DNA from: Actinomycetota bacterium
GTDB lineage: Bacteria > Actinomycetota > CADDZG01 > WHSQ01
Length of the DNA stretch: 38,412 bases
Direction: 5' to 3'
Assembly: GCA_050694015.1 (NCBI GenBank)
Contig: JBOGWY010000297.1
Span: 1 to 38,412, forward strand
Position 1 is the first letter of the stretch. Each line of letters starts with the position of its first letter. A program made the translations under genes and the position numbers. The notes below the pieces were generated by a model. The model had not been told where the DNA came from. It saw nothing but the letters and a program-made list of their open reading frames with translations, and searched no databases. Shown piece after piece: positions 599 to 29,195 of this stretch.

Positions 599-1918
599 GT
601 GCGCGTCGCCGGACGTCTTATGACCATCAGATCCCAGGGGAAGGTCGCGTTCGCCGATCTACAAGACGCCACCGGGCGCATCCAACTCTTCGCGCAGCAA
701 GCCGTCCTCGGAGACGACGGGATGAAGTCGTTCACCGACCTCGGAGTGGGCGACATCGTGGGGGCCGAGGGCGAGGTGATGCGAACCCGCCGCGGCGAGC
801 TGTCCGTCAGAGTCGCGGATGTAACGCTGCTGGCGGAGTGCCTGCGTCCGATGCCGGACAACTGGCACGGCGTGACCGACGTCGAAGCGCGGTATCGCCA
901 GCGCTACCTCGATCTGCTGTTCAACGAGGCGCCGCAACGCGCGCTCCGGGCCCGGGCCGCGGCCAACGCCGCGATCCGGCGCTTCTTCGACGAGCGAGGC
1001 TTCATCGAGGTCGAGACGCCTCTGTTCCAACCGATAGCGGGAGGAGCGGTGGCGCGACCGTTCGTCACCCACCACAACACCCTCGATATCGATCTGTACT
1101 TAAGGATCGCTCCCGAGCTGTACCTGAAGCGTCTATTGATCGGCGGCCTCGAGCGCGTCTACGAGCTCAACCGGAGCTTCCGGAACGAAGGTCTGTCGAC
1201 GCGCCATCAGGCAGAGTTCACGATGCTCGAGGCCTACGAGGCCTACGTCGACTACAACGACACGATGACTCTGGTCGAAGAGCTCGTGCGTGAGATCGCG
1301 CGCGCCGTCAACGGCACCACCGCGGTCGATTACGACGGCCGCAACGTAGACCTCGAGAAACCGTTCAAGCGGATGACGATGTTCGAGGTGATCGTCGAAG
1401 CGACGGGACGCGACCTCACCGATCTGTGGTCGCAACAGGACATCGGTGCGTTGCAGGCGGCGGCACGCGATCTCGACGTGCGGATCGATCCGAAGTGGCC
1501 GATCGGCAAGCTGATGATGGAGATCTTCGAGCAAACGACCGAGAAGCAACTCGTCGAGCCCACCTACGTCGCCGGCATGCCCAAAGACGTCTCTCCTCTC
1601 GCGAAGGACCACCGGAGCATCCCGGGGTTCACGGAGCACGCCGATCTCGTGATCTGTGGGGTCGAGCTTGCTCCGGTGTACTCGGAGCTGAACGATCCCG
1701 AGGAGCAACGGCGTCGACTCGAACAACAAGCGCGCGCCCGTGCCGCCGGCGACGAGGAGGCCCACCTCCAGGACGAGGATTTCCTCACCGCGCTCAGTTA
1801 CGGCATGCCTCCCGCGGGCGGGTTCGGCCTCGGTCTCGATCGTCTCCTCGTGTTGCTGCTCGGCGAGACGACGTGGAGAGAGGTCGTGTTGTTCCCCACG
1901 CTCAAGCCGGAGGCATAG
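599..1918 (+). CDS. lysS: Lysine--tRNA ligase, class II (LysS). Coordinates run from the first canonical start (GTG 599), but LysRS-like sequence continues upstream in frame to about 503 (see findings).
   Basis: OB-fold N-domain (VAGRLMTIRSQGKVAFADLQD) plus class II catalytic motifs (FRNEG..., GGFGLGLDRLLVLL). TAG at 1916-1918. Confidence 0.9.
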   Translation: MRVAGRLMTIRSQGKVAFADLQDATGRIQLFAQQAVLGDDGMKSFTDLGVGDIVGAEGEVMRTRRGELSVRVADVTLLAECLRPMPDNWHGVTDVEARYRQRYLDLLFNEAPQRALRARAAANAAIRRFFDERGFIEVETPLFQPIAGGAVARPFVTHHNTLDIDLYLRIAPELYLKRLLIGGLERVYELNRSFRNEGLSTRHQAEFTMLEAYEAYVDYNDTMTLVEELVREIARAVNGTTAVDYDGRNVDLEKPFKRMTMFEVIVEATGRDLTDLWSQQDIGALQAAARDLDVRIDPKWPIGKLMMEIFEQTTEKQLVEPTYVAGMPKDVSPLAKDHRSIPGFTEHADLVICGVELAPVYSELNDPEEQRRRLEQQARARAAGDEEAHLQDEDFLTALSYGMPPAGGFGLGLDRLLVLLLGETTWREVVLFPTLKPEA

Positions 1919-3330
1919 CAACGCGTCGCGCTACAGCCCTCGGGCTGGCCGTCGCCGTCGCGGTCGGCGTTGCGTGTCAACCCGACGAGCCCCGTCCGCT
2001 GCGACCCGAGGTTCCGGTCGCAAGCGCTACGAGTACCAAGACCAGGGTCATAGGGCTCGTCGCCTCGATGACGGGCGAGAACTCGTGGCGCGGCGATGAA
2101 GCGTACGAGGGCGCGAGCGCGGCGATACAGGTTCTGAACCGATCGCTCGAGGACAACGAACCTCGTTTCGAGCTGGTCACGCGCGATGACGGGGGCGACC
2201 CGGAGCAGGCGCGTGCTCTGATCGAAGAGTTCGCGGGTTCGGTGCAGACGGTGGGGTTGCTGTTCGCGGGGCCCCCGCAGGTCCTACCGCAAGCAGAGAA
2301 CACACTCGCCGCCGCGCGCATCCCGGCTCTCTTGACCGCCGGTGATCTCTACAGCGCGCAGCTGCTGACGCCACATGTGTTCCAGGTCAGTCCGCCCTAC
2401 CTGTGGCAGGCGCGGTCGATCGCGCGCTACCTGTTGCTCGACCGGGGTTATCGACGGATAGGGCTCGTCTCCGAGGACGCGATCTCGGGTGAGGCGGCGC
2501 GCCGCTCACTGACGACGGCACTGTCCGAGCTGGGAGGCCGCCTGGCCACCTCGAGCTTGTTCCCGACGGAGCAGGGGGGCATCCAACCCGCCTTGCGACC
2601 CATGGAACGACGTCGTGTCCAGGCCGTGGTGGTCCAGGGACCGCCCGCGACGTTCGAGCAGGTCCTGGACCACCAGCGCAACACGGGGGCGCGGTACGCG
2701 TCGACGCGCGCCGCCGCGAGGAGGCGCGCTCGGTGGGCGCCCCAGATCGTCGGCTTCGACGCCGCCATCAGTCCCGACATCGACAGGAGCCTCCTGACGC
2801 CGGGGACCGTTGCCAGCGACTCCTATGCCCGCGGCGCCTATTACCTGCCGATCCCGAGCTTCGTCCGCTTCCGGGATCGGTTCGCCGCATGGTGGGACTC
2901 GCCTCCCCTCGGCAACGAACGGCGCGCCTACGAGGCCGTGCAGATGATCGGCTGGGCCGCGCGTCGGATCCCGACTGGGAGGAACACCGATGTGGCGACC
3001 GTGCTGGAGAAGCTCCGCGACGAACGGCTCGGCGGTCTGCCGGTCACCTTCGGCCCCGACGATCACACCTCGGTGGACCAGACCTCGGTCGGCCTGTGGG
3101 TCATCCCGCGGCTCGGGATCGACGTGCGTGAAGCGGGGTCCGCCCGCGCCGGCTTGTTGCCGTGGGTTCCGTTGCACCGCGGCTTCTCGATCGACGGCGA
3201 GCGGACCAGCATCTTCCCGGAGGACTGGAAGTGGATGTTCCGCAACGCGCCGCCGAAGAACGGCCCCGCCCCCAAGATCCCCACGGCCAGATTCGGGGTC
3301 ACCACCGGCCGCCGCGACCCGGTCCATTAG
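1873..3330 (+). CDS. Periplasmic-binding-protein type 1 (LivK/branched-chain amino acid binding-like) putative lipoprotein, solitary (no permease or ATPase nearby)
   Basis: The long ORF 1426-3330 overlaps lysS, so the plausible start is GTG 1873. Signal-like TRRATALGLAVAVAVGVAC with Cys, then an SBP-like body (VIGLVASMTG...EAYEGA...LVTRDDGGDP...VGLLFAGP). The start is uncertain. Confidence 0.6.
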   Translation: MERGRVVPHAQAGGIATRRATALGLAVAVAVGVACQPDEPRPLRPEVPVASATSTKTRVIGLVASMTGENSWRGDEAYEGASAAIQVLNRSLEDNEPRFELVTRDDGGDPEQARALIEEFAGSVQTVGLLFAGPPQVLPQAENTLAAARIPALLTAGDLYSAQLLTPHVFQVSPPYLWQARSIARYLLLDRGYRRIGLVSEDAISGEAARRSLTTALSELGGRLATSSLFPTEQGGIQPALRPMERRRVQAVVVQGPPATFEQVLDHQRNTGARYASTRAAARRRARWAPQIVGFDAAISPDIDRSLLTPGTVASDSYARGAYYLPIPSFVRFRDRFAAWWDSPPLGNERRAYEAVQMIGWAARRIPTGRNTDVATVLEKLRDERLGGLPVTFGPDDHTSVDQTSVGLWVIPRLGIDVREAGSARAGLLPWVPLHRGFSIDGERTSIFPEDWKWMFRNAPPKNGPAPKIPTARFGVTTGRRDPVH

Positions 3331-25141: not shown

Positions 25142-26371
25142 ATGAAATACGTCAGCGGGCTCCGGTGTAAGGAATGTGGGAACGCCTACCCGGTAGCCCC
25201 CCAGCACGTGTGCGACATGTGCTTCGGCCCGCTCGAAGTCTTCTACGACTACGAGGCGCTTCGCTCCGAGGTGACGCGGGCGGAGATCGAGTCGGGCCCC
25301 GACTCGATCTGGCGGTACTCGCCATTCCTGCCGACCCCGTCCTCCGGTGCCATCGATATCGGGGCCGGTTGGACGCGTTTCCGAGCGGCTCCCCGCCTCG
25401 CGGCCGAGATCGGTCTCCGCAAGCTCTGGATAAAGACCGACGGCGGTAATCCCACGCATTCGTTCAAGGACCGCGTCGTGACCGTCGCGTTATCGGTCGC
25501 ACGGTCCTTCGGTTACACGGTTGCCGCCTGTGCATCGACGGGCAACCTAGCGAACGCCGTTGCCGCGCATGCCGCTGCTTCCGGGATGGAGAGCGTCGTG
25601 TTCATCCCCTCGGATCTCGAGCGCGGCAAGGTCGCCGGAACGACGATCTATGGCGGCCGTGTCATCGCGATCGACGGCTCGTACGACGACGTGAACCGGT
25701 TGTGCGCCGAGCTGGCCGGAGCGGGCCGCGAGTGGGCGTTCGTGAACGTCAACTTCCGCCCCTTTTATTCGGAGGGTTCCAAGACGATGGGCTTCGAGGT
25801 CGCCGAGCAACTCGGGTGGCGCACGCCGGACGCCATCGTGGTGCCGGTCGCGTCGGGCTCGTTGCTCACCAAGGTGGCGAAGTCGTTCCGCGAGCTACAC
25901 GAGGTCGGGATCCTGGACGATGCACCGCAGACGACCATCCACGGTGCGCAGGCCGAGGGCTGCTCGCCGGTCGCGACCGCCTTCGAAGCGGGCGCGGAGG
26001 ACGTGCGCCCGGTCAAGCCCCAGACGATCGCGAAGTCGCTCGCGATCGGGAACCCCGCCGACGGCTACTACGCGCTCAAAGAGGTCCGCGCCACCGGGGG
26101 CCGCGTGGCGTCCGTTCCGGAGGACGCGGTGGCCGAAGGGATGCGACTCTTGGCGAGAACCGAGGGTCTCTTCACCGAGACGGCCGGTGGCGTGACGATC
26201 GCGACACTCGAGCGACTCGTAAGGGAAGGAGCGATCGCCCCCGACGACGAAACAGTGGTTCTCATCACCGGCGTCGGTCTCAAGACGATCGAGGCCCTGG
26301 GGGAGGTAGCGCCGACCGATCACATCGGGGGGAGCGTCGAAGAGGTAGATCGCATCATGCAGGAGGGTTGA
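25142..26371 (+). CDS. Threonine synthase-like PLP enzyme with an N-terminal 4-Cys zinc ribbon
   Basis: CKECG...CDMCFGPLE ribbon and the PLP lysine motif THSFKDR. ThrC-fold body. Immediately followed by a MoaD/ThiS-like gene. Confidence 0.85.
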   Translation: MKYVSGLRCKECGNAYPVAPQHVCDMCFGPLEVFYDYEALRSEVTRAEIESGPDSIWRYSPFLPTPSSGAIDIGAGWTRFRAAPRLAAEIGLRKLWIKTDGGNPTHSFKDRVVTVALSVARSFGYTVAACASTGNLANAVAAHAAASGMESVVFIPSDLERGKVAGTTIYGGRVIAIDGSYDDVNRLCAELAGAGREWAFVNVNFRPFYSEGSKTMGFEVAEQLGWRTPDAIVVPVASGSLLTKVAKSFRELHEVGILDDAPQTTIHGAQAEGCSPVATAFEAGAEDVRPVKPQTIAKSLAIGNPADGYYALKEVRATGGRVASVPEDAVAEGMRLLARTEGLFTETAGGVTIATLERLVREGAIAPDDETVVLITGVGLKTIEALGEVAPTDHIGGSVEEVDRIMQEG

Positions 26372-26376
26372 GAGTC

Positions 26377-26652
26377 ATGGCAGTGAAGGTGAAGATCCCG
26401 ACGCAACTACGAACGCTCACCAACGGCGAGGGTGAGGTCGAGGCCCAAGCGGGAGTTCTCGTCGATGTCATCGCAGATCTCGAAGCACACCATCCCGGGA
26501 TCAAGGACCGGTTGATGGATGGTTCGGGTGAGCTTCGACGTTTCGTCAACGTCTACCTCGATGACGAGGACGTTCGTTTCCTCGAAGGTCTGTCCACGAA
26601 CGTCCAGGAGGGCGCGCGCCTCTCGATCATCCCGGCGGTCGCCGGGGGTTAG
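26377..26652 (+). CDS. MoaD/ThiS/CysO-like sulfur-carrier protein (C-terminal GG)
   Basis: 91 aa, MAVKVKIPTQLR...RFVNVYLDDEDV...LSIIPAVAGG-stop. SD GGAGGG upstream. 5 nt after the thrC-like stop. Confidence 0.8.
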   Translation: MAVKVKIPTQLRTLTNGEGEVEAQAGVLVDVIADLEAHHPGIKDRLMDGSGELRRFVNVYLDDEDVRFLEGLSTNVQEGARLSIIPAVAGG

Positions 26653-26658
26653 CGGGCA

Positions 26659-27066
26659 CTACATAGCGGCGAGGGCGGTATCCACCTCTGCGGGGTGCGG
26701 GACTTTCCTCCAGCGTTCGATCACGTGACCGCTCGCGGTGATCAGGAACACCGTCGGTATCGCGCGCACGTCGTAGCGCAGCGCGAGGTCCGAACGATCC
26801 ATCGCATCGACGGTGGTCACCTCGGTCAGGCCCGGCCGTTTCTCGGCGGCCGTCTCCACGACGCGCAGCGCGGCCTTGCACGGACGACACGCCGGGGTCG
26901 TGAACACAACGAACGCGCAACATCCGGCCATGAGCTCGAGCCCGAGCTCCTCTATGTCGAGCCGGTCGAGCGCCTTGGCGGCACGACGGCGATAGAGCTG
27001 GAACAGCCCGAGGAGAACGAGTCCTACGAGCGCGGCGATGACGAGCGCCGCCAGACGCCCGCTCAC
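26659..27066 (-). CDS. Membrane-anchored thioredoxin-like protein (CRPC active site)
   Basis: N-terminal TM helix, FTTPACRPCK redox motif, cis-Pro motif IPTVFL. Its GTG start directly follows a TAA that closes the extended DUF4395 frame. Confidence 0.75.
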   Translation of the reverse strand: MSGRLAALVIAALVGLVLLGLFQLYRRRAAKALDRLDIEELGLELMAGCCAFVVFTTPACRPCKAALRVVETAAEKRPGLTEVTTVDAMDRSDLALRYDVRAIPTVFLITASGHVIERWRKVPHPAEVDTALAAM

Positions 27067-27486
27067 TTAAGCCTCTTTCGAGCGCACCCGCTGCACGAGC
27101 AGGTAGACCTCACAGCCAAGTCAGAAATTGGCCGTCGCGGCGAGCGCGGATAGCACGGCCACCATCAACGCGGCCCCCCATCCAACGATCCACCACGGCT
27201 GGGACTCGGACGCGGTCGCGAATAGGGCGATCGAACCGACGGTCAGGAAGACGGCGCCGAGGGTTTGGGCGAATCGCGGGGGTGCCGCGGGCTCCATCTC
27301 GCCCGGTGAGATCGGCAGGGCCTTGTAGAGGTAGGCCAGGAGGTTCCAGCGCGGCCCCCCGAGCGCGGCCAGAACGAGGATCGCGGCCAGGACGACGACC
27401 ACCCAGCGGGCGTCGACCAGGAACGCAACCGCGAGGGCGACGGCCTGCACGCCTTGAGAGAACCGGGGAAGTCGAGAGTCGATCAC
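27067..27486 (-). CDS. DUF4395-family membrane protein with an in-frame TGA (27121-27123), candidate selenocysteine. The conventional ORF would end at 27121.
   Basis: Strong SD (GGAGGAGGAAAGGAG) lies 5 nt before GTG 27486. PRF motifs (SRLPRF, APPRFAQ). After ...ATANF-TGA the frame continues LGCEVYLLVQRVRSKEA-TAA. Confidence 0.55.
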
Positions 27487-27753
27487 CCTTGCTCCTTTCC
27501 TCCTCCGCACAAGCTGCGCTGAAGCGCTGCTTGTCCTACGGAACCTGGGGGGACCCGCTCGCAAGCTTCGCTATCGTCCCCCCAGACCCCCCTGCTCCTT
27601 GAGCGATTTACGGCGTATCCATCGAGGGTACAACCGGTTATCTGTGTACCTCTGAGCCAGACCGGGTGAGCCAGACGCTCAAGTCAAGCCTTTCGCGCAC
27701 CGATTCAAGGGTGGCGACTATCCTTTTGCGATGGTGGCTGAAGGGAGAGGTAG

Positions 27754-28206
27754 ATGGCCCGCATCCTCATAGCCGAGGACAACGCTGAGATCCGCGCGTT
27801 GGTGAGTAGCATCCTGGTCGAAGAGGGCCACAAGGTGAGCGTGGCCCAGAACGGGCAGCAGGCGCTCGACCTCATGCTCGAAGACACTCCCGACGTTCTC
27901 CTGCTCGACATCATGATGCCCCAGATGGACGGCTACACCGTGCTCAAGGAGATCAAGTCGTCGGGCATCCGCGAGTCGATGAAGATCATGATCCTCACGG
28001 CGAAGACGTCGGAATCCGACTGGGTACGCGGTTACAAGTTGGGGGCCGACGCCTACGTGACCAAGCCATTCGATATCGACGAGCTCACCGGGCAGGTCGA
28101 CGAGTTGCTTTCGATGACCAAGGATCAACTCCGCCTCCGGCGCGAGCAAGAGCTCGACAAGGCTCAGCTCCTCTCCCGCCTAGAGTCCATCTTCGACTCG
28201 TCCTAA
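27754..28206 (+). CDS. Stand-alone response regulator receiver (CheY-like) with a C-terminal coiled-coil-like tail
   Basis: ILIAEDN..., LLLDIMMPQMDG (phosphoacceptor Asp), LTAKT, KPF motifs. No output domain and no kinase in the window. Confidence 0.85.
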   Translation: MARILIAEDNAEIRALVSSILVEEGHKVSVAQNGQQALDLMLEDTPDVLLLDIMMPQMDGYTVLKEIKSSGIRESMKIMILTAKTSESDWVRGYKLGADAYVTKPFDIDELTGQVDELLSMTKDQLRLRREQELDKAQLLSRLESIFDSS

Positions 28207-28245
28207 CCCGGGCGTTCTGGTACCACCCCGGTAACCTCGGTAGTC

Positions 28246-28848
28246 GTGAGGCGTCTTAACGATTCCCGAGGCCACGGCTCGAAAGAGTCCGTCTCCGCGG
28301 ATCTGATCGCTCGGTGCAAATCCGGCGACGAGGTCGCGTGGGGCCGGCTCGTCGAGGCGACGCACCGGGACGTTTACACGCTGTGCCTCCGGATCCTTAG
28401 AGATCCCGACGACGCCGCCGAGGCGACGCAGGATGCGTACCTCAAGGTGTGGCGGAACCTCAAGGGGTTCCGGGGGGATTCGATGTTCGAGACGTGGCTG
28501 TATCGCGTAGCGAGCAATGCCGCCATCTCGAAACATCGCAGCCGCAAAAGGAGGCAGTCGCACGAGGCAGGGACGCAGGACGAGTTGCTCGGCCAGATGC
28601 CGGCACCGGGATCGGTGGAGGCTACGGCGGGGGCGAAACTCGATGTCCAAGCTCTCGAGCGTGCGATGGCAACGCTGCCGGAGCACTACCGCGCCGCGGT
28701 GGTGCTGCGGGATGTGTATGGCTTGACGACCGAGGAGATAGCGAAGCAGCTGAAGATCTCGGAGACCGCAGCCAAGGTGCGCGTGCATCGCGGCCGCAAG
28801 CGGTTGAAAGAGATCATGTACGACGAACCGGAGGGGAATGCAACATGA
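28246..28848 (+). CDS. ECF-type sigma-70 family sigma factor
   Basis: Region 2 (DAAEATQDAYLKVWRNLKGFRGDSMFETWLYRVASNAAI) and region 4 (LPEHYRAAVVLRDVYGLTTEEIAKQLKISETAAKVRVHRGRKRL). Confidence 0.85.
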   Translation: MRRLNDSRGHGSKESVSADLIARCKSGDEVAWGRLVEATHRDVYTLCLRILRDPDDAAEATQDAYLKVWRNLKGFRGDSMFETWLYRVASNAAISKHRSRKRRQSHEAGTQDELLGQMPAPGSVEATAGAKLDVQALERAMATLPEHYRAAVVLRDVYGLTTEEIAKQLKISETAAKVRVHRGRKRLKEIMYDEPEGNAT

Positions 28849-29195
28849 AGTGCGCAGAGATCAGAGAGGTCCTACCGGCTTATGCCGACGATCCCGAGAC
28901 GACGCTGGCCGTCCGTCGTCATCTCTCGCGCTGCCCCGATTGCAAGGCGGAGCTCGCGCGCTACGACGAGCTGCTCGACGGCCTTGCCGCGATGCGATCG
29001 GTCGCCGTTGAGCCTCCCCTCGGTCTCGACCGATGGCTCGCCGAGATACCGAACACTCACAACAAGCTCGAGCAGGTGCGCGATCACCTCGCGCGCAACA
29101 AGCGTGCGTACGCGGGGGGCGTCGCGGTCGCGGTGCTCGGTGCCGCGGCAGCCACCCTCTGGCAGACGCGACGCGCTCGTCCCGTCACTGCCTGA
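28845..29195 (+). CDS. Zinc-binding (zf-HC2, ZAS-type) anti-sigma factor with a C-terminal TM helix
   Basis: ATGA overlap with the sigma gene. HLSRCPDC (H-x3-C-x2-C) motif. Hydrophobic AYAGGVAVAVLGAAAATLW segment. Confidence 0.7.
   Translation: MKCAEIREVLPAYADDPETTLAVRRHLSRCPDCKAELARYDELLDGLAAMRSVAVEPPLGLDRWLAEIPNTHNKLEQVRDHLARNKRAYAGGVAVAVLGAAAATLWQTRRARPVTA

What the first reader, a model, noticed from the sequence alone, without database searches (positions are those of the whole stretch)
27067..27486. In-frame TGA at the first Cys position of the C-terminal CxxC motif of a DUF4395 membrane protein: candidate UxxC selenoprotein
On the minus strand the ORF reads ...SALAATANF-TGA-LGCEVYLLVQRVRSKEA-TAA. 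The TAA (27069-27067) is followed with no gap by the GTG (27066) of the thioredoxin-like gene. As I recall DUF4395 (PF14340) proteins, they end in a conserved ...NAxFxxC-L-G-C-x-x-Y-x-L motif, so the TGA falls exactly on the first Cys of a redox CxxC. The downstream 17 codons still encode the rest of the motif. A TGA aligned to a conserved redox Cys, with preserved downstream coding and a redox partner in the operon, is the classic signature used to find new selenoproteins. I am not aware of DUF4395 being a recognised selenoprotein family. Small GC hairpins follow the TGA (CUGC-UCGU-GCAG at 27102-27091; CUC-GAAA-GAG at 27082-27073), but I cannot call a convincing bacterial SECIS by eye.
Basis: partly seen in the sequence, partly recalled or inferred. 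Interest (0 to 1): 0.85.

Follow-up and report, generated by a model that had tools for sequence, protein, structure and literature searches.

The report
New membrane selenoprotein family (DUF4395)
A small membrane protein of unknown function in uncultured soil actinobacteria carries a stop codon that is almost certainly read as the rare amino acid selenocysteine, which defines a previously unlisted selenoprotein family and pinpoints the protein's redox-active site.

Summary
On the minus strand, a DUF4395 (PF14340) gene (27486-27067) has an in-frame TGA (27123-27121) exactly where homologues have the first Cys of a near-universal C-x-G-C motif. The frame continues for 17 conserved codons to TAA, which abuts the GTG of a thioredoxin-like gene.

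In 26 of 26 DNA loci of the truncated type the codon is TGA, never TAA or TAG. About 82 of the 120 closest protein clusters are called as ending at this point. The extension evolves as coding sequence in that frame.

A conserved hairpin lies 23 nt after the UGA and has an invariant GU in its loop. It meets all four published bacterial SECIS criteria in every TGA locus and in none of ten Cys-type relatives, and one sequence carries a compensatory pair change.

DUF4395 is absent from a 2026 inventory of prokaryotic selenoproteins and matches no NCBIfam model. Recurrent fusions of DUF4395 to thioredoxin domains, the conserved downstream thioredoxin gene and the predicted topology suggest a cytoplasm-facing membrane selenol/thiol oxidoreductase recycled by a tethered thioredoxin.

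The main gap is that I could not check for selA, selB, selC or selD in these genomes.

The parts
27067..27486 (-). Full DUF4395 selenoprotein ORF: GTG start, 121 codons, Sec-UGA, 17 codons, TAA. The product is 139 aa with a U-L-G-C motif at residues 122-125.
   Evidence: PF14340, E 7.3e-30, full-length match across the TGA; alignment with Cys-type homologues of the same length.
27492..27506 (-). Shine-Dalgarno region (GGAGGAGGAAAGGAG). AAGGAG ends 5 nt before the GTG start.
   Evidence: Read directly. The start agrees with the N-termini of homologues.
27121..27123 (-). In-frame TGA, predicted selenocysteine codon (residue 122), aligned to the first Cys of C-x-G-C.
   Evidence: TGA in 26 of 26 truncated-type loci. 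TGC or TGT in all other DUF4395 loci that could be read. TGA is an ordinary stop elsewhere: 6 of 24 window genes and 16 of 25 second stops of this same gene.
27085..27105 (-). Bacterial SECIS stem-loop. 5' arm 27105-27098, apical loop 27097-27093 (CGUGC, with invariant G27096 and U27095), 3' arm 27092-27085. The invariantly paired 6-bp core is 27103-27098 with 27092-27087. The loop starts 23 nt after the UGA.
   Evidence: The core is paired in 21 of 21 distinct sequences, with one compensatory C-G to U-A change (L081) and one U-A to U-G change (L096). Energy is -8.1 to -10.6 kcal/mol in all 26 TGA loci and -3.6 or weaker in 10 of 10 Cys-type loci. All four criteria of the published bSECIS model are met.
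27067..27120 (-). Post-UGA extension LGCEVYLLVQRVRSKEA plus the true TAA stop. It supplies the resolving Cys125 and a C-terminal helix.
   Evidence: pairwise codon differences in frame are 917 synonymous to 371 non-synonymous, against 78:1014 and 168:1016 in the other two frames. Extension length is 15-17 codons in all loci. The AlphaFold model of a Cys-type homologue has helix 123-138.
26659..27066 (-). Membrane-anchored thioredoxin-like partner gene (CRPC active site). Its GTG abuts the TAA of the selenoprotein gene.
   Evidence: Thioredoxin 32.3 bits, cut-off 23.5. It lies immediately downstream wherever the fetched sequence of a close relative reaches that far. Its start overlaps or lies within 16 nt (37 nt in one locus) of the second stop, not the TGA. 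DUF4395-thioredoxin fusions exist.

Best explanation
The gene at 27486-27067 (minus strand) encodes a 139-aa selenoprotein of the DUF4395 family. UGA at 27123-27121 is recoded to selenocysteine by a standard bacterial SECIS hairpin (27105-27085) that lies inside the 17-codon extension. The result is a U-L-G-C redox motif in place of the family's C-x-G-C.

Shown: the Sec/Cys pair, TGA exclusivity, in-frame coding conservation after the TGA, a SECIS that meets published criteria and is present only in TGA forms, and a conserved downstream thioredoxin gene whose start is positioned against the second stop.

Inferred: the protein has four transmembrane helices and is built from an internal duplication, with both ends in the cytoplasm. 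Sec122 sits at the N-cap of a C-terminal interfacial helix, which is the geometry of the attacking Cys in CxxC oxidoreductases. After reacting with a substrate, Sec122 forms a selenenyl-sulfide with Cys125. This bond is reduced by the co-translated thioredoxin, which is tethered to the membrane and faces the cytoplasm. The substrate is unknown. Genomic context across the family points to thiol, sulfane-sulfur or disulfide chemistry at the membrane.
For: Family membership: Pfam DUF4395 matches full-length across the TGA.

Sec/Cys pair: about 82 of the 120 closest 90%-identity clusters are called as ending exactly before the Cys column, and 38 carry F-C-[LV]-G-C.

Stop-codon identity: 26 of 26 truncated-type DNA loci have TGA, while the second stop is TGA in 16, TAG in 8 and TAA in 1.

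Coding signal: Leu, Gly and Cys right after the TGA use 4, 4 and 2 synonymous codons. In-frame synonymous to non-synonymous differences are 917:371, against 78:1014 and 168:1016 off-frame.

SECIS: the 6-bp core is paired in 21 of 21 sequences, loop G and U are invariant, and there is one compensatory change and one wobble change. Sliding the partner columns drops pairing from 92% to 27-52%. The hairpin is -8.1 to -10.6 kcal/mol in all TGA loci and absent in 10 of 10 Cys-type loci. All four bSECIS criteria of PMC13188914 are met. Most of these sequences have the loop tetranucleotide GGUC, as in E. coli fdhF; the window itself has CGUG.

Gene architecture: the thioredoxin start overlaps or abuts the second stop in both Sec and Cys types.

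Function: the thioredoxin partner is conserved. 11 of 150 diverse DUF4395 representatives are fused to thioredoxin-like domains, and the five fusions whose linkers I examined have no TM segment. The AlphaFold model (pLDDT 95) puts residue 122 at a helix break and N-cap. Lys+Arg counts are 7.5 on one face and 1.0 on the other, and the thioredoxin anchor has 1 against 3-5. Neighbours of distant members include rhodanese-ThiF fusions, disulfide reductases and AhpD-like proteins.
Against: No tRNA-Sec, selA, selB or selD was found in the window or in about 640 kb of related loci. The rest of these genomes could not be searched, so Sec-decoding capacity is not demonstrated. There is no experimental evidence such as 75Se labelling or mass spectrometry.

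Covariation in the hairpin is thin: one double change and one wobble change. The stem is nearly invariant and overlaps coding sequence. The shuffle control reached the observed score in 23 of 500 trials. The whole 64-nt segment does not fold better than shuffled sequence (z = 0.14).

The function part rests on context, fusions and the positive-inside rule. No solved structure resembles the model (best Foldseek E 1.7; sequence search).
Confidence: 0.85

Rival explanations
1. The TGA is a genuine stop. This clade makes a 121-aa DUF4395 without the CxxC motif, and the conserved downstream sequence is a non-coding RNA or DNA element, for example a hairpin that controls translation of the thioredoxin gene.
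For: Gene callers in every public source end the protein at 121 aa. A conserved hairpin does lie between that stop and the thioredoxin start.
Against: The downstream stretch shows a strong coding signature in exactly the frame of the TGA: 917:371 synonymous to non-synonymous, against 78:1014 and 168:1016 in the other frames. It encodes the same L-G-C-E-x-Y-L residues as Cys-type homologues. A real stop would be expected to drift among TGA, TAG and TAA as the second stop does, but it is TGA in 26 of 26 loci. The thioredoxin start is positioned against the second stop, with 4-nt GTGA or ATGA overlaps in 8 loci.
Confidence: 0.03
2. The UGA is read through without selenocysteine. This could be near-cognate tRNA-Trp or tRNA-Cys decoding in the leaky UGA-C context, possibly stimulated by the hairpin, and would put an ordinary amino acid at position 122.
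For: Every locus has C after the UGA, which from general knowledge is a weak termination context in bacteria. Sec machinery was not demonstrated for these genomes.
Against: The codon replaces a redox Cys of a CxxC motif, which is the typical site of Sec. The hairpin has the specific features of SelB-binding SECIS elements: a G then U within the first positions of a small apical loop, 23 nt from the UGA. Trp or Gly at this position would destroy the motif conserved in nearly all family members. No precedent known to me exists for a conserved bacterial read-through hairpin of this kind.
Confidence: 0.07
3. The TGA is a sequencing or assembly error (TGC or TGT misread), or the gene is a recent pseudogene.
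For: A single-base change separates TGA from TGC or TGT.
Against: The same TGA occurs in 26 independent assemblies from different studies, and the TGA-type proteins have diverged from one another to about 51% identity. The SECIS hairpin and the extension are maintained throughout.
Confidence: 0.01

Closest known systems
UxxC selenoproteins of the thioredoxin-fold type (Sec-containing thioredoxin, glutaredoxin, thiol:disulfide interchange protein, DsbA-like and DsbG-like forms) listed in PMC13188914
   Same: Sec replaces the N-terminal Cys of a CxxC redox motif. Cys-type homologues are abundant. Decoding uses a coding-region bSECIS just after the UGA. In the model Sec sits at a helix N-cap.
   Different: The protein is not a thioredoxin fold. 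It is a four-helix integral membrane protein with no structural neighbour in the PDB. The motif is at the extreme C-terminus.
E. coli fdhF SECIS (the reference bacterial SECIS)
   Same: A hairpin directly downstream of the UGA in the coding region. The apical loop is GGUC in most of these sequences, and G followed by U is invariant.
   Different: The loop lies 23 nt after the UGA here and 18 nt in fdhF. The helix is shorter (6-9 bp) and has no bulged U. The window's own loop is CGUGC.
[quoted passage not shown]
   Same: These are integral membrane proteins with Sec in a short Cys-containing motif.
   Different: There is no sequence relationship. NCBIfam gave no hit at all, and Pfam MerC scored only E 1.5.
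YgaP-like transmembrane domain (PF11127) of the E. coli membrane rhodanese YgaP
   Same: A two-helix hairpin preceded by an R-x-x-Q motif and ending in a conserved F-C-G motif. It is linked to sulfur-transfer enzymes, as are several DUF4395 genes. 5 of 150 DUF4395 representatives hit the model, best E 5.5e-4.
   Different: The window protein scores only E 0.27 and 11.8 bits against a 25.3-bit cut-off, and hhalign gives 0.24% probability. DUF4395 has two such hairpins and a CxxC rather than a single Cys.
Membrane protein plus thioredoxin-like partner systems (DsbB-DsbA, VKOR-Trx fusions, CcdA/DsbD, MauE-MauD)
   Same: A small polytopic membrane protein with a redox Cys pair, encoded next to or fused with a thioredoxin-fold protein. 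This is a resemblance in how it may work.
   Different: Both redox centres are predicted to face the cytoplasm rather than the periplasm. There is no fold or sequence similarity to DsbB, VKOR or DsbD and no evidence of a quinone link.

Membership tests
Bacterial selenoprotein gene | In-frame UGA aligned with a conserved Cys in homologues (Sec/Cys pair) | tested here: met
   TGA at column 122 against TGC or TGT in close and distant homologues. C-x-x-C is near-universal among 150 representatives.
Bacterial selenoprotein gene | Reading frame continues after the UGA and is conserved as protein | tested here: met
   A 15-17-codon extension L-G-C-E-x-Y-L-L-V-x-R. Synonymous to non-synonymous differences are 917:371 in frame and 78:1014 and 168:1016 off frame.
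Bacterial selenoprotein gene | TGA-containing orthologues in other organisms | tested here: met
   26 DNA loci from separate assemblies. About 82 protein clusters are called as ending at this point.
Bacterial selenoprotein gene | bSECIS by the published model: 3-9 nt apical loop, 4-16 bp upper stem, G in the first two loop positions, 16-37 nt from UGA to loop, energy at or below -7.5 kcal/mol (PMC13188914, Fig. 2) | tested here: met
   The loop is 5 nt, [C/G]GU[G/C/U][C/G], or 3 nt if G-C closes it. The stem is 6-9 bp. The spacing is 23 nt. The energy is -8.1 to -10.6 kcal/mol in all 26 TGA loci.
Bacterial selenoprotein gene | Genome encodes tRNA-Sec (selC), SelA, SelB and SelD | not testable with these tools
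   None were found in the window or in held loci.
Bacterial selenoprotein gene | Selenium incorporation shown experimentally | not testable with these tools
   This needs 75Se labelling or mass spectrometry.
Pfam DUF4395 (PF14340) | Score above the gathering threshold over the whole domain | tested here: met
   104.4 bits against a 24.5-bit cut-off, profile positions 1-130 of 130.
Any selenoprotein family already modelled by NCBIfam or listed in the 2026 inventory | Match to a curated selenoprotein model, or listing of PF14340/DUF4395 | tested here: not met
   No NCBIfam family at E up to 0.01. PF14340 and DUF4395 are absent from the inventory table and from all selenoprotein papers in the library.
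Thioredoxin family (partner gene 27066-26659) | Thioredoxin-fold profile match with a CxxC active site | tested here: met
   PF00085 at 32.3 bits against a 23.5-bit cut-off, with a CRPC motif.
YgaP-like_TM (PF11127) | Score above the gathering threshold | tested here: not met
   11.8 bits against a 25.3-bit cut-off, E 0.27. hhalign probability is 0.24%. Only 5 of 150 family representatives give weak hits, best E 5.5e-4.
DsbB / VKOR / DsbD-type membrane oxidoreductases | Fold or sequence similarity | tested here: not met
   No PDB match with E at or below 0.001, best 1.7. No Pfam hit.

The most novel reading that the evidence does not exclude
DUF4395 together with its dedicated thioredoxin (separate and membrane-tethered, or fused) is a previously unrecognised class of membrane-embedded oxidoreductase that faces the cytoplasm. 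It would be an inward-facing counterpart of DsbB/VKOR-type systems. Its [U/C]xxC at a helix N-cap on the inner membrane face would act on a membrane-associated or lipophilic substrate, or relay sulfane sulfur or selenium. In one abundant soil actinobacterial lineage the attacking residue has been upgraded to selenocysteine.
Probability: 0.35. Interest if true: 0.72.

Novelty: new member of a known kind. Interest (0 to 1): 0.6.

Why it matters
It adds a family to the catalogue of prokaryotic selenoproteins, and one of the few that are integral membrane proteins. The lineage is an uncultured soil Actinomycetota clade whose members are currently annotated with a truncated 121-aa product in every public source I saw.

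Sec almost always marks a catalytic redox residue. The Sec/Cys pair therefore gives the first functional handle on DUF4395, a domain with about 600 clusters at 50% identity and no characterised member. Its C-terminal CxxC is very probably a redox active site, serviced by a thioredoxin.

There is also a practical consequence. Gene callers and annotation pipelines would need a DUF4395 selenoprotein model to stop truncating these genes.

Tried and rejected
- **Sec machinery.** ARAGORN and Rfam found no tRNA-Sec in the window, and ARAGORN found none in 101 loci. tblastn with E. coli SelA, SelB and SelD against all held DNA gave no hits. This is uninformative because only the neighbourhood of this gene was available.
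- **Source contig.** Looking up the window's own contig failed; its proteins are not on record.
- **Taxonomy.** A ClpC search returned only 'Actinomycetota bacterium' MAGs.
The 4-bp hairpin (27102-27091) was rejected because its register cannot form in most relatives (CUGC/CCAG). The second hairpin lies in non-conserved sequence.
- **Global fold.** The 64-nt segment does not fold better than shuffles (z = 0.14). The case rests on conservation, not on energy alone.
- **Structural neighbours.** Foldseek against the PDB (best E 1.7) and an HMM search of PDB sequences (stannin, E 0.18) found nothing.
- **YgaP relationship.** It is suggestive but not significant.
- **Other selenoproteins in the window.** A screen for other TGA-interrupted ORFs gave only shadow-frame artefacts.
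- **Genome-wide TGA reassignment.** It is excluded, because TGA is a normal stop in 6 of 24 window genes.
- **Sec forms elsewhere in DUF4395.** Among the 150 best 50%-identity representatives, only this clade (P0122, P0135) has them. The other sequences without CxxC are fragments.
- **Regulatory signals.** Rfam at relaxed threshold and the promoter/terminator scan around the gene found nothing usable.

Full report
**1. The observation**

The minus strand between 27486 and 27067 reads GTG-IDSRLPRF...SALAATANF, then TGA (27123-27121), then LGCEVYLLVQRVRSKEA and TAA (27069-27067). The next base, 27066, starts a GTG-initiated 135-aa gene with a CRPC motif. An AAGGAG Shine-Dalgarno sequence ends 5 nt before the GTG at 27486.

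With Cys in place of the stop, the 139-aa product matches Pfam DUF4395 (PF14340) at E 7.3e-30. The match covers profile positions 1-130 of 130 and residues 2-133, so the family model runs straight through the TGA. The downstream gene is a thioredoxin-family protein, scoring 32.3 bits against a cut-off of 23.5.

**2. Sec/Cys pair at the protein level**

A search of 5.8 billion proteins returned 518 homologues. Among the best 120 clusters, about 82 are called as ending at ...A-T-T-S-F, the residue before the first Cys. The other 38 are 135-140 aa and continue F-C-[LV]-G-C-E-x-[YF]-L. All public sources that name the short forms, including NCBI, call them ordinary 121-aa DUF4395 proteins.

**3. 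DNA of the relatives**

I fetched 80 loci from GTDB species representatives, 20 from metagenomes and one long JGI contig.

- Every truncated-type locus has TGA at this column: 9 + 15 + 1 + the window = 26 of 26. None has TAA or TAG.
- Every such TGA is followed in frame by L-G-C-E-[IVF]-Y-L-L-V-[QER]-R-[VAI]-[RK] and a second stop 15-17 codons later.
- That second stop is TGA in 16 loci, TAG in 8 and TAA in 1.
- In the window, 6 of 24 confident genes end in TGA. TGA is therefore a normal stop in these organisms, and only this one position is special.
- Close Cys-type relatives and all distant DUF4395 genes (Acidimicrobiia, Chloroflexota and others) have TGC or TGT there.

**4. The extension is translated**

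Among 23 distinct sequences, the Leu, Gly and Cys codons just after the TGA use 4, 4 and 2 synonymous codons with no amino-acid change. Over 13 codons, pairwise codon differences are 917 synonymous to 371 non-synonymous in the frame of the TGA. In the other two frames they are 78:1014 and 168:1016.

The thioredoxin gene's start overlaps the second stop (GTGA or ATGA, 8 loci), abuts it (the window), or follows within 7-16 nt (37 nt in one locus). Cys-type relatives show the same arrangement. The second stop is therefore the real end of the gene.

**5. The SECIS element**

Alignment of 21 distinct 45-nt segments starting at the TGA shows a stem-loop at columns 19-39. In window coordinates, the 5' arm is 27105-27098, the loop is 27097-27093 and the 3' arm is 27092-27085.

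- The 6-bp core (C-G, C-G, U-G, G-C, C-G, U-A) is paired in 21 of 21 sequences.
- L081 has C-G changed to U-A, through a synonymous TAC-to-TAT change together with GTC-to-ATC.
- L096 has U-A changed to U-G.
- The loop is [C/G]-G-U-[G/C/U]-[C/G], with G and U invariant.
- Sliding the 3' partners by 1-3 columns drops pairing from 92% to 27-52%.
- Third-codon positions inside the stem (CTG, CAG, CGG) are frozen. Those in the loop and upstream of the stem vary freely.

The structure scores -8.1 to -10.6 kcal/mol in all 26 TGA loci. In 10 of 10 Cys-type relatives it is -3.6 kcal/mol or weaker, with 2-5 of the 6 core pairs.

The published bSECIS model (PMC13188914, Fig. 2, read) requires a loop of 3-9 nt, a stem of 4-16 bp, a G in the first two loop positions, 16-37 nt from UGA to loop, and an energy of -7.5 kcal/mol or below. 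All four are met; the spacing here is 23 nt. Most sequences share the loop GGUC with E. coli fdhF, where it lies 18 nt after the UGA.

Two caveats apply. Covariation is thin because the stem is nearly invariant (23 of 500 shuffles reach the observed score). The 64-nt segment as a whole folds no better than shuffled sequence.

**6. What could not be tested**

No tRNA-Sec, selA, selB or selD is present in the window or in the roughly 640 kb of held loci. That DNA is only the neighbourhood of this gene. The collection scans were exhausted, and the window's contig is not in the look-up collection.

A ClpC search showed that the organism belongs to an uncultured soil 'Actinomycetota bacterium' clade with no named relatives. 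Sec-decoding capacity is therefore inferred from the gene itself, not shown.

**7. What the protein is**

AlphaFold2 on a Cys-type homologue (66% identical, same length) gives a confident model with pLDDT 95. It has helices at 5-23, 27-47, 49-56, 68-90 and 96-119, a break at 120-122, and a helix at 123-138. Residue 122 (Sec or Cys) is therefore at the N-cap of the C-terminal helix and Cys125 is in its first turn. From general knowledge of thioredoxin-fold enzymes, this is the usual geometry of the attacking Cys in a CxxC motif.

No solved structure resembles the model (best Foldseek E 1.7).

The two halves of the protein are related: LPRFSQ plus a TM hairpin, and PPRFAQ plus a TM hairpin (hhalign probability 79%). 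One subfamily carries a second CxxC at the equivalent point after TM2.

Lys+Arg counts average 7.5 on the face holding the N-terminus, the central loop and the C-terminus. They average 1.0 on the other face. The thioredoxin anchor has 1 basic residue before and 3-5 after its TM segment. By the positive-inside rule, both redox centres face the cytoplasm.

**8. Partner and context**

The thioredoxin gene lies directly downstream in every close relative for which sequence is available, whether Sec-type or Cys-type. Among 150 representatives at 50% identity or less, 11 carry a fused thioredoxin or glutaredoxin-like domain. In the five fusions whose linkers I examined, the linker has no TM segment (P0130, P0134, P0147, P0174, P0177). 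This places the thioredoxin on the same side as the CxxC.

I scanned 122 immediate neighbours of 65 distant DUF4395 genes. They include:

- 8 rhodanese proteins, 7 of them ThiF-rhodanese fusions
- 8 pyridine-nucleotide disulfide oxidoreductases
- 4 AhpD/CMD proteins
- 3 Cys/Met PLP enzymes

In the window, a ThiS-like sulfur carrier and a PALP enzyme converge on the operon. Weak, recurrent hits to the YgaP-like TM domain of a membrane rhodanese fit a sulfur theme but are not significant.

**9. Mechanism proposed**

SelB with Sec-tRNA-Sec decodes the UGA at the SECIS and gives U-L-G-C. Sec122 attacks a substrate at the inner membrane face. The resulting Se-S bond with Cys125 is reduced by the tethered thioredoxin. 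The first step is strongly supported. The catalytic cycle and the substrate are inference.

**10. Novelty and evolution**

DUF4395 and PF14340 appear in only four unrelated papers in the library. They are absent from the 2026 inventory of prokaryotic selenoproteins, and BSepDB's text does not mention them. The protein matches no NCBIfam model, including the curated selenoprotein models.

Sec forms were found only in this clade among the 150 best family representatives. A neighbour-joining tree suggests a Sec-type grade with several nested Cys-type clades and about five state changes. It has no support values.

**Verdict.** This is a new selenoprotein family of the standard bacterial kind, predicted with high confidence. 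It is of moderate to good interest. It is not categorically new.

Noticed in passing
window 25142-26371 (+) and 26377-26652 (+): A PALP enzyme (threonine-synthase-like, with an N-terminal Cys-rich ribbon) is followed directly by a ThiS/MoaD-like sulfur-carrier protein ending in Gly-Gly. Both converge on the thioredoxin gene, and the same synteny is seen in L101. This may be a protein-thiocarboxylate sulfur-transfer pair, which fits the sulfur theme around DUF4395 genes.
   Followed up: partly
window 27754-29195 (+): A divergent operon encodes a stand-alone response-regulator receiver, an ECF sigma factor and a zf-HC2 (HxxxCxxC, ZAS-type) anti-sigma factor. It is conserved next to the DUF4395-thioredoxin pair in relatives. 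It is a candidate thiol-stress regulator of the pair, but I did not test this.
   Followed up: partly
window about 27712-27686 (-); upstream of the DUF4395 start in L001-L013, L087-L101: A conserved intergenic motif ATCGG-N17-TTGAG lies between the response-regulator gene and DUF4395 in most Sec-type and Cys-type relatives. It resembles no sigma-70 consensus and may be an ECF-type promoter or an operator.
   Followed up: no
window 27487-27685 (-): The window has about 190 nt of extra leader between that motif and the start codon, including a GGGGGGAC...GTCCCCCC hairpin near 27585-27535. Relatives have only 20-70 nt here. There was no Rfam match; the best was a spurious hit at E 0.12.
   Followed up: partly
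P0167, P0174, P0188, P0190, P0198, P0205, P0237, P0251 (DUF4395 representatives): One DUF4395 subfamily has a second CxxC (CLPC, CLAC or CLTC) right after TM2. This is the position equivalent to the C-terminal CxxC in the other half of the protein. It supports an internal duplication (hhalign 79% between halves) and a possible two-centre relay.
   Followed up: partly
P0130, P0134, P0147, P0174, P0177 and others (11 of 150 representatives): These are natural fusions of DUF4395 to a C-terminal thioredoxin or glutaredoxin-like domain. In the five named here, whose linkers I examined, the hydrophilic linker has no TM segment.
   Followed up: yes
L016, L017, L018, L019, L020, L028, L080 (Acidimicrobiia loci), about 1700-2900 (+): A rhodanese-ThiF (MoeZ-like) adenylyltransferase/sulfurtransferase gene lies immediately upstream of the Cys-type DUF4395 gene. 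In L016 a cysteine-synthase-like PALP gene lies a further 1 kb downstream. In L072 (Streptosporangiaceae) the order is thioredoxin, DUF4395, two-domain rhodanese.
   Followed up: partly
partner thioredoxin, window about 26926-26921 (-) and homologues: A conserved Gly-Cys-Cys (L-E-L-M-x-G-C-C-A-F) lies 11 residues before the CRPC active site in nearly all partner thioredoxins. This extra vicinal Cys pair has no known role.
   Followed up: no
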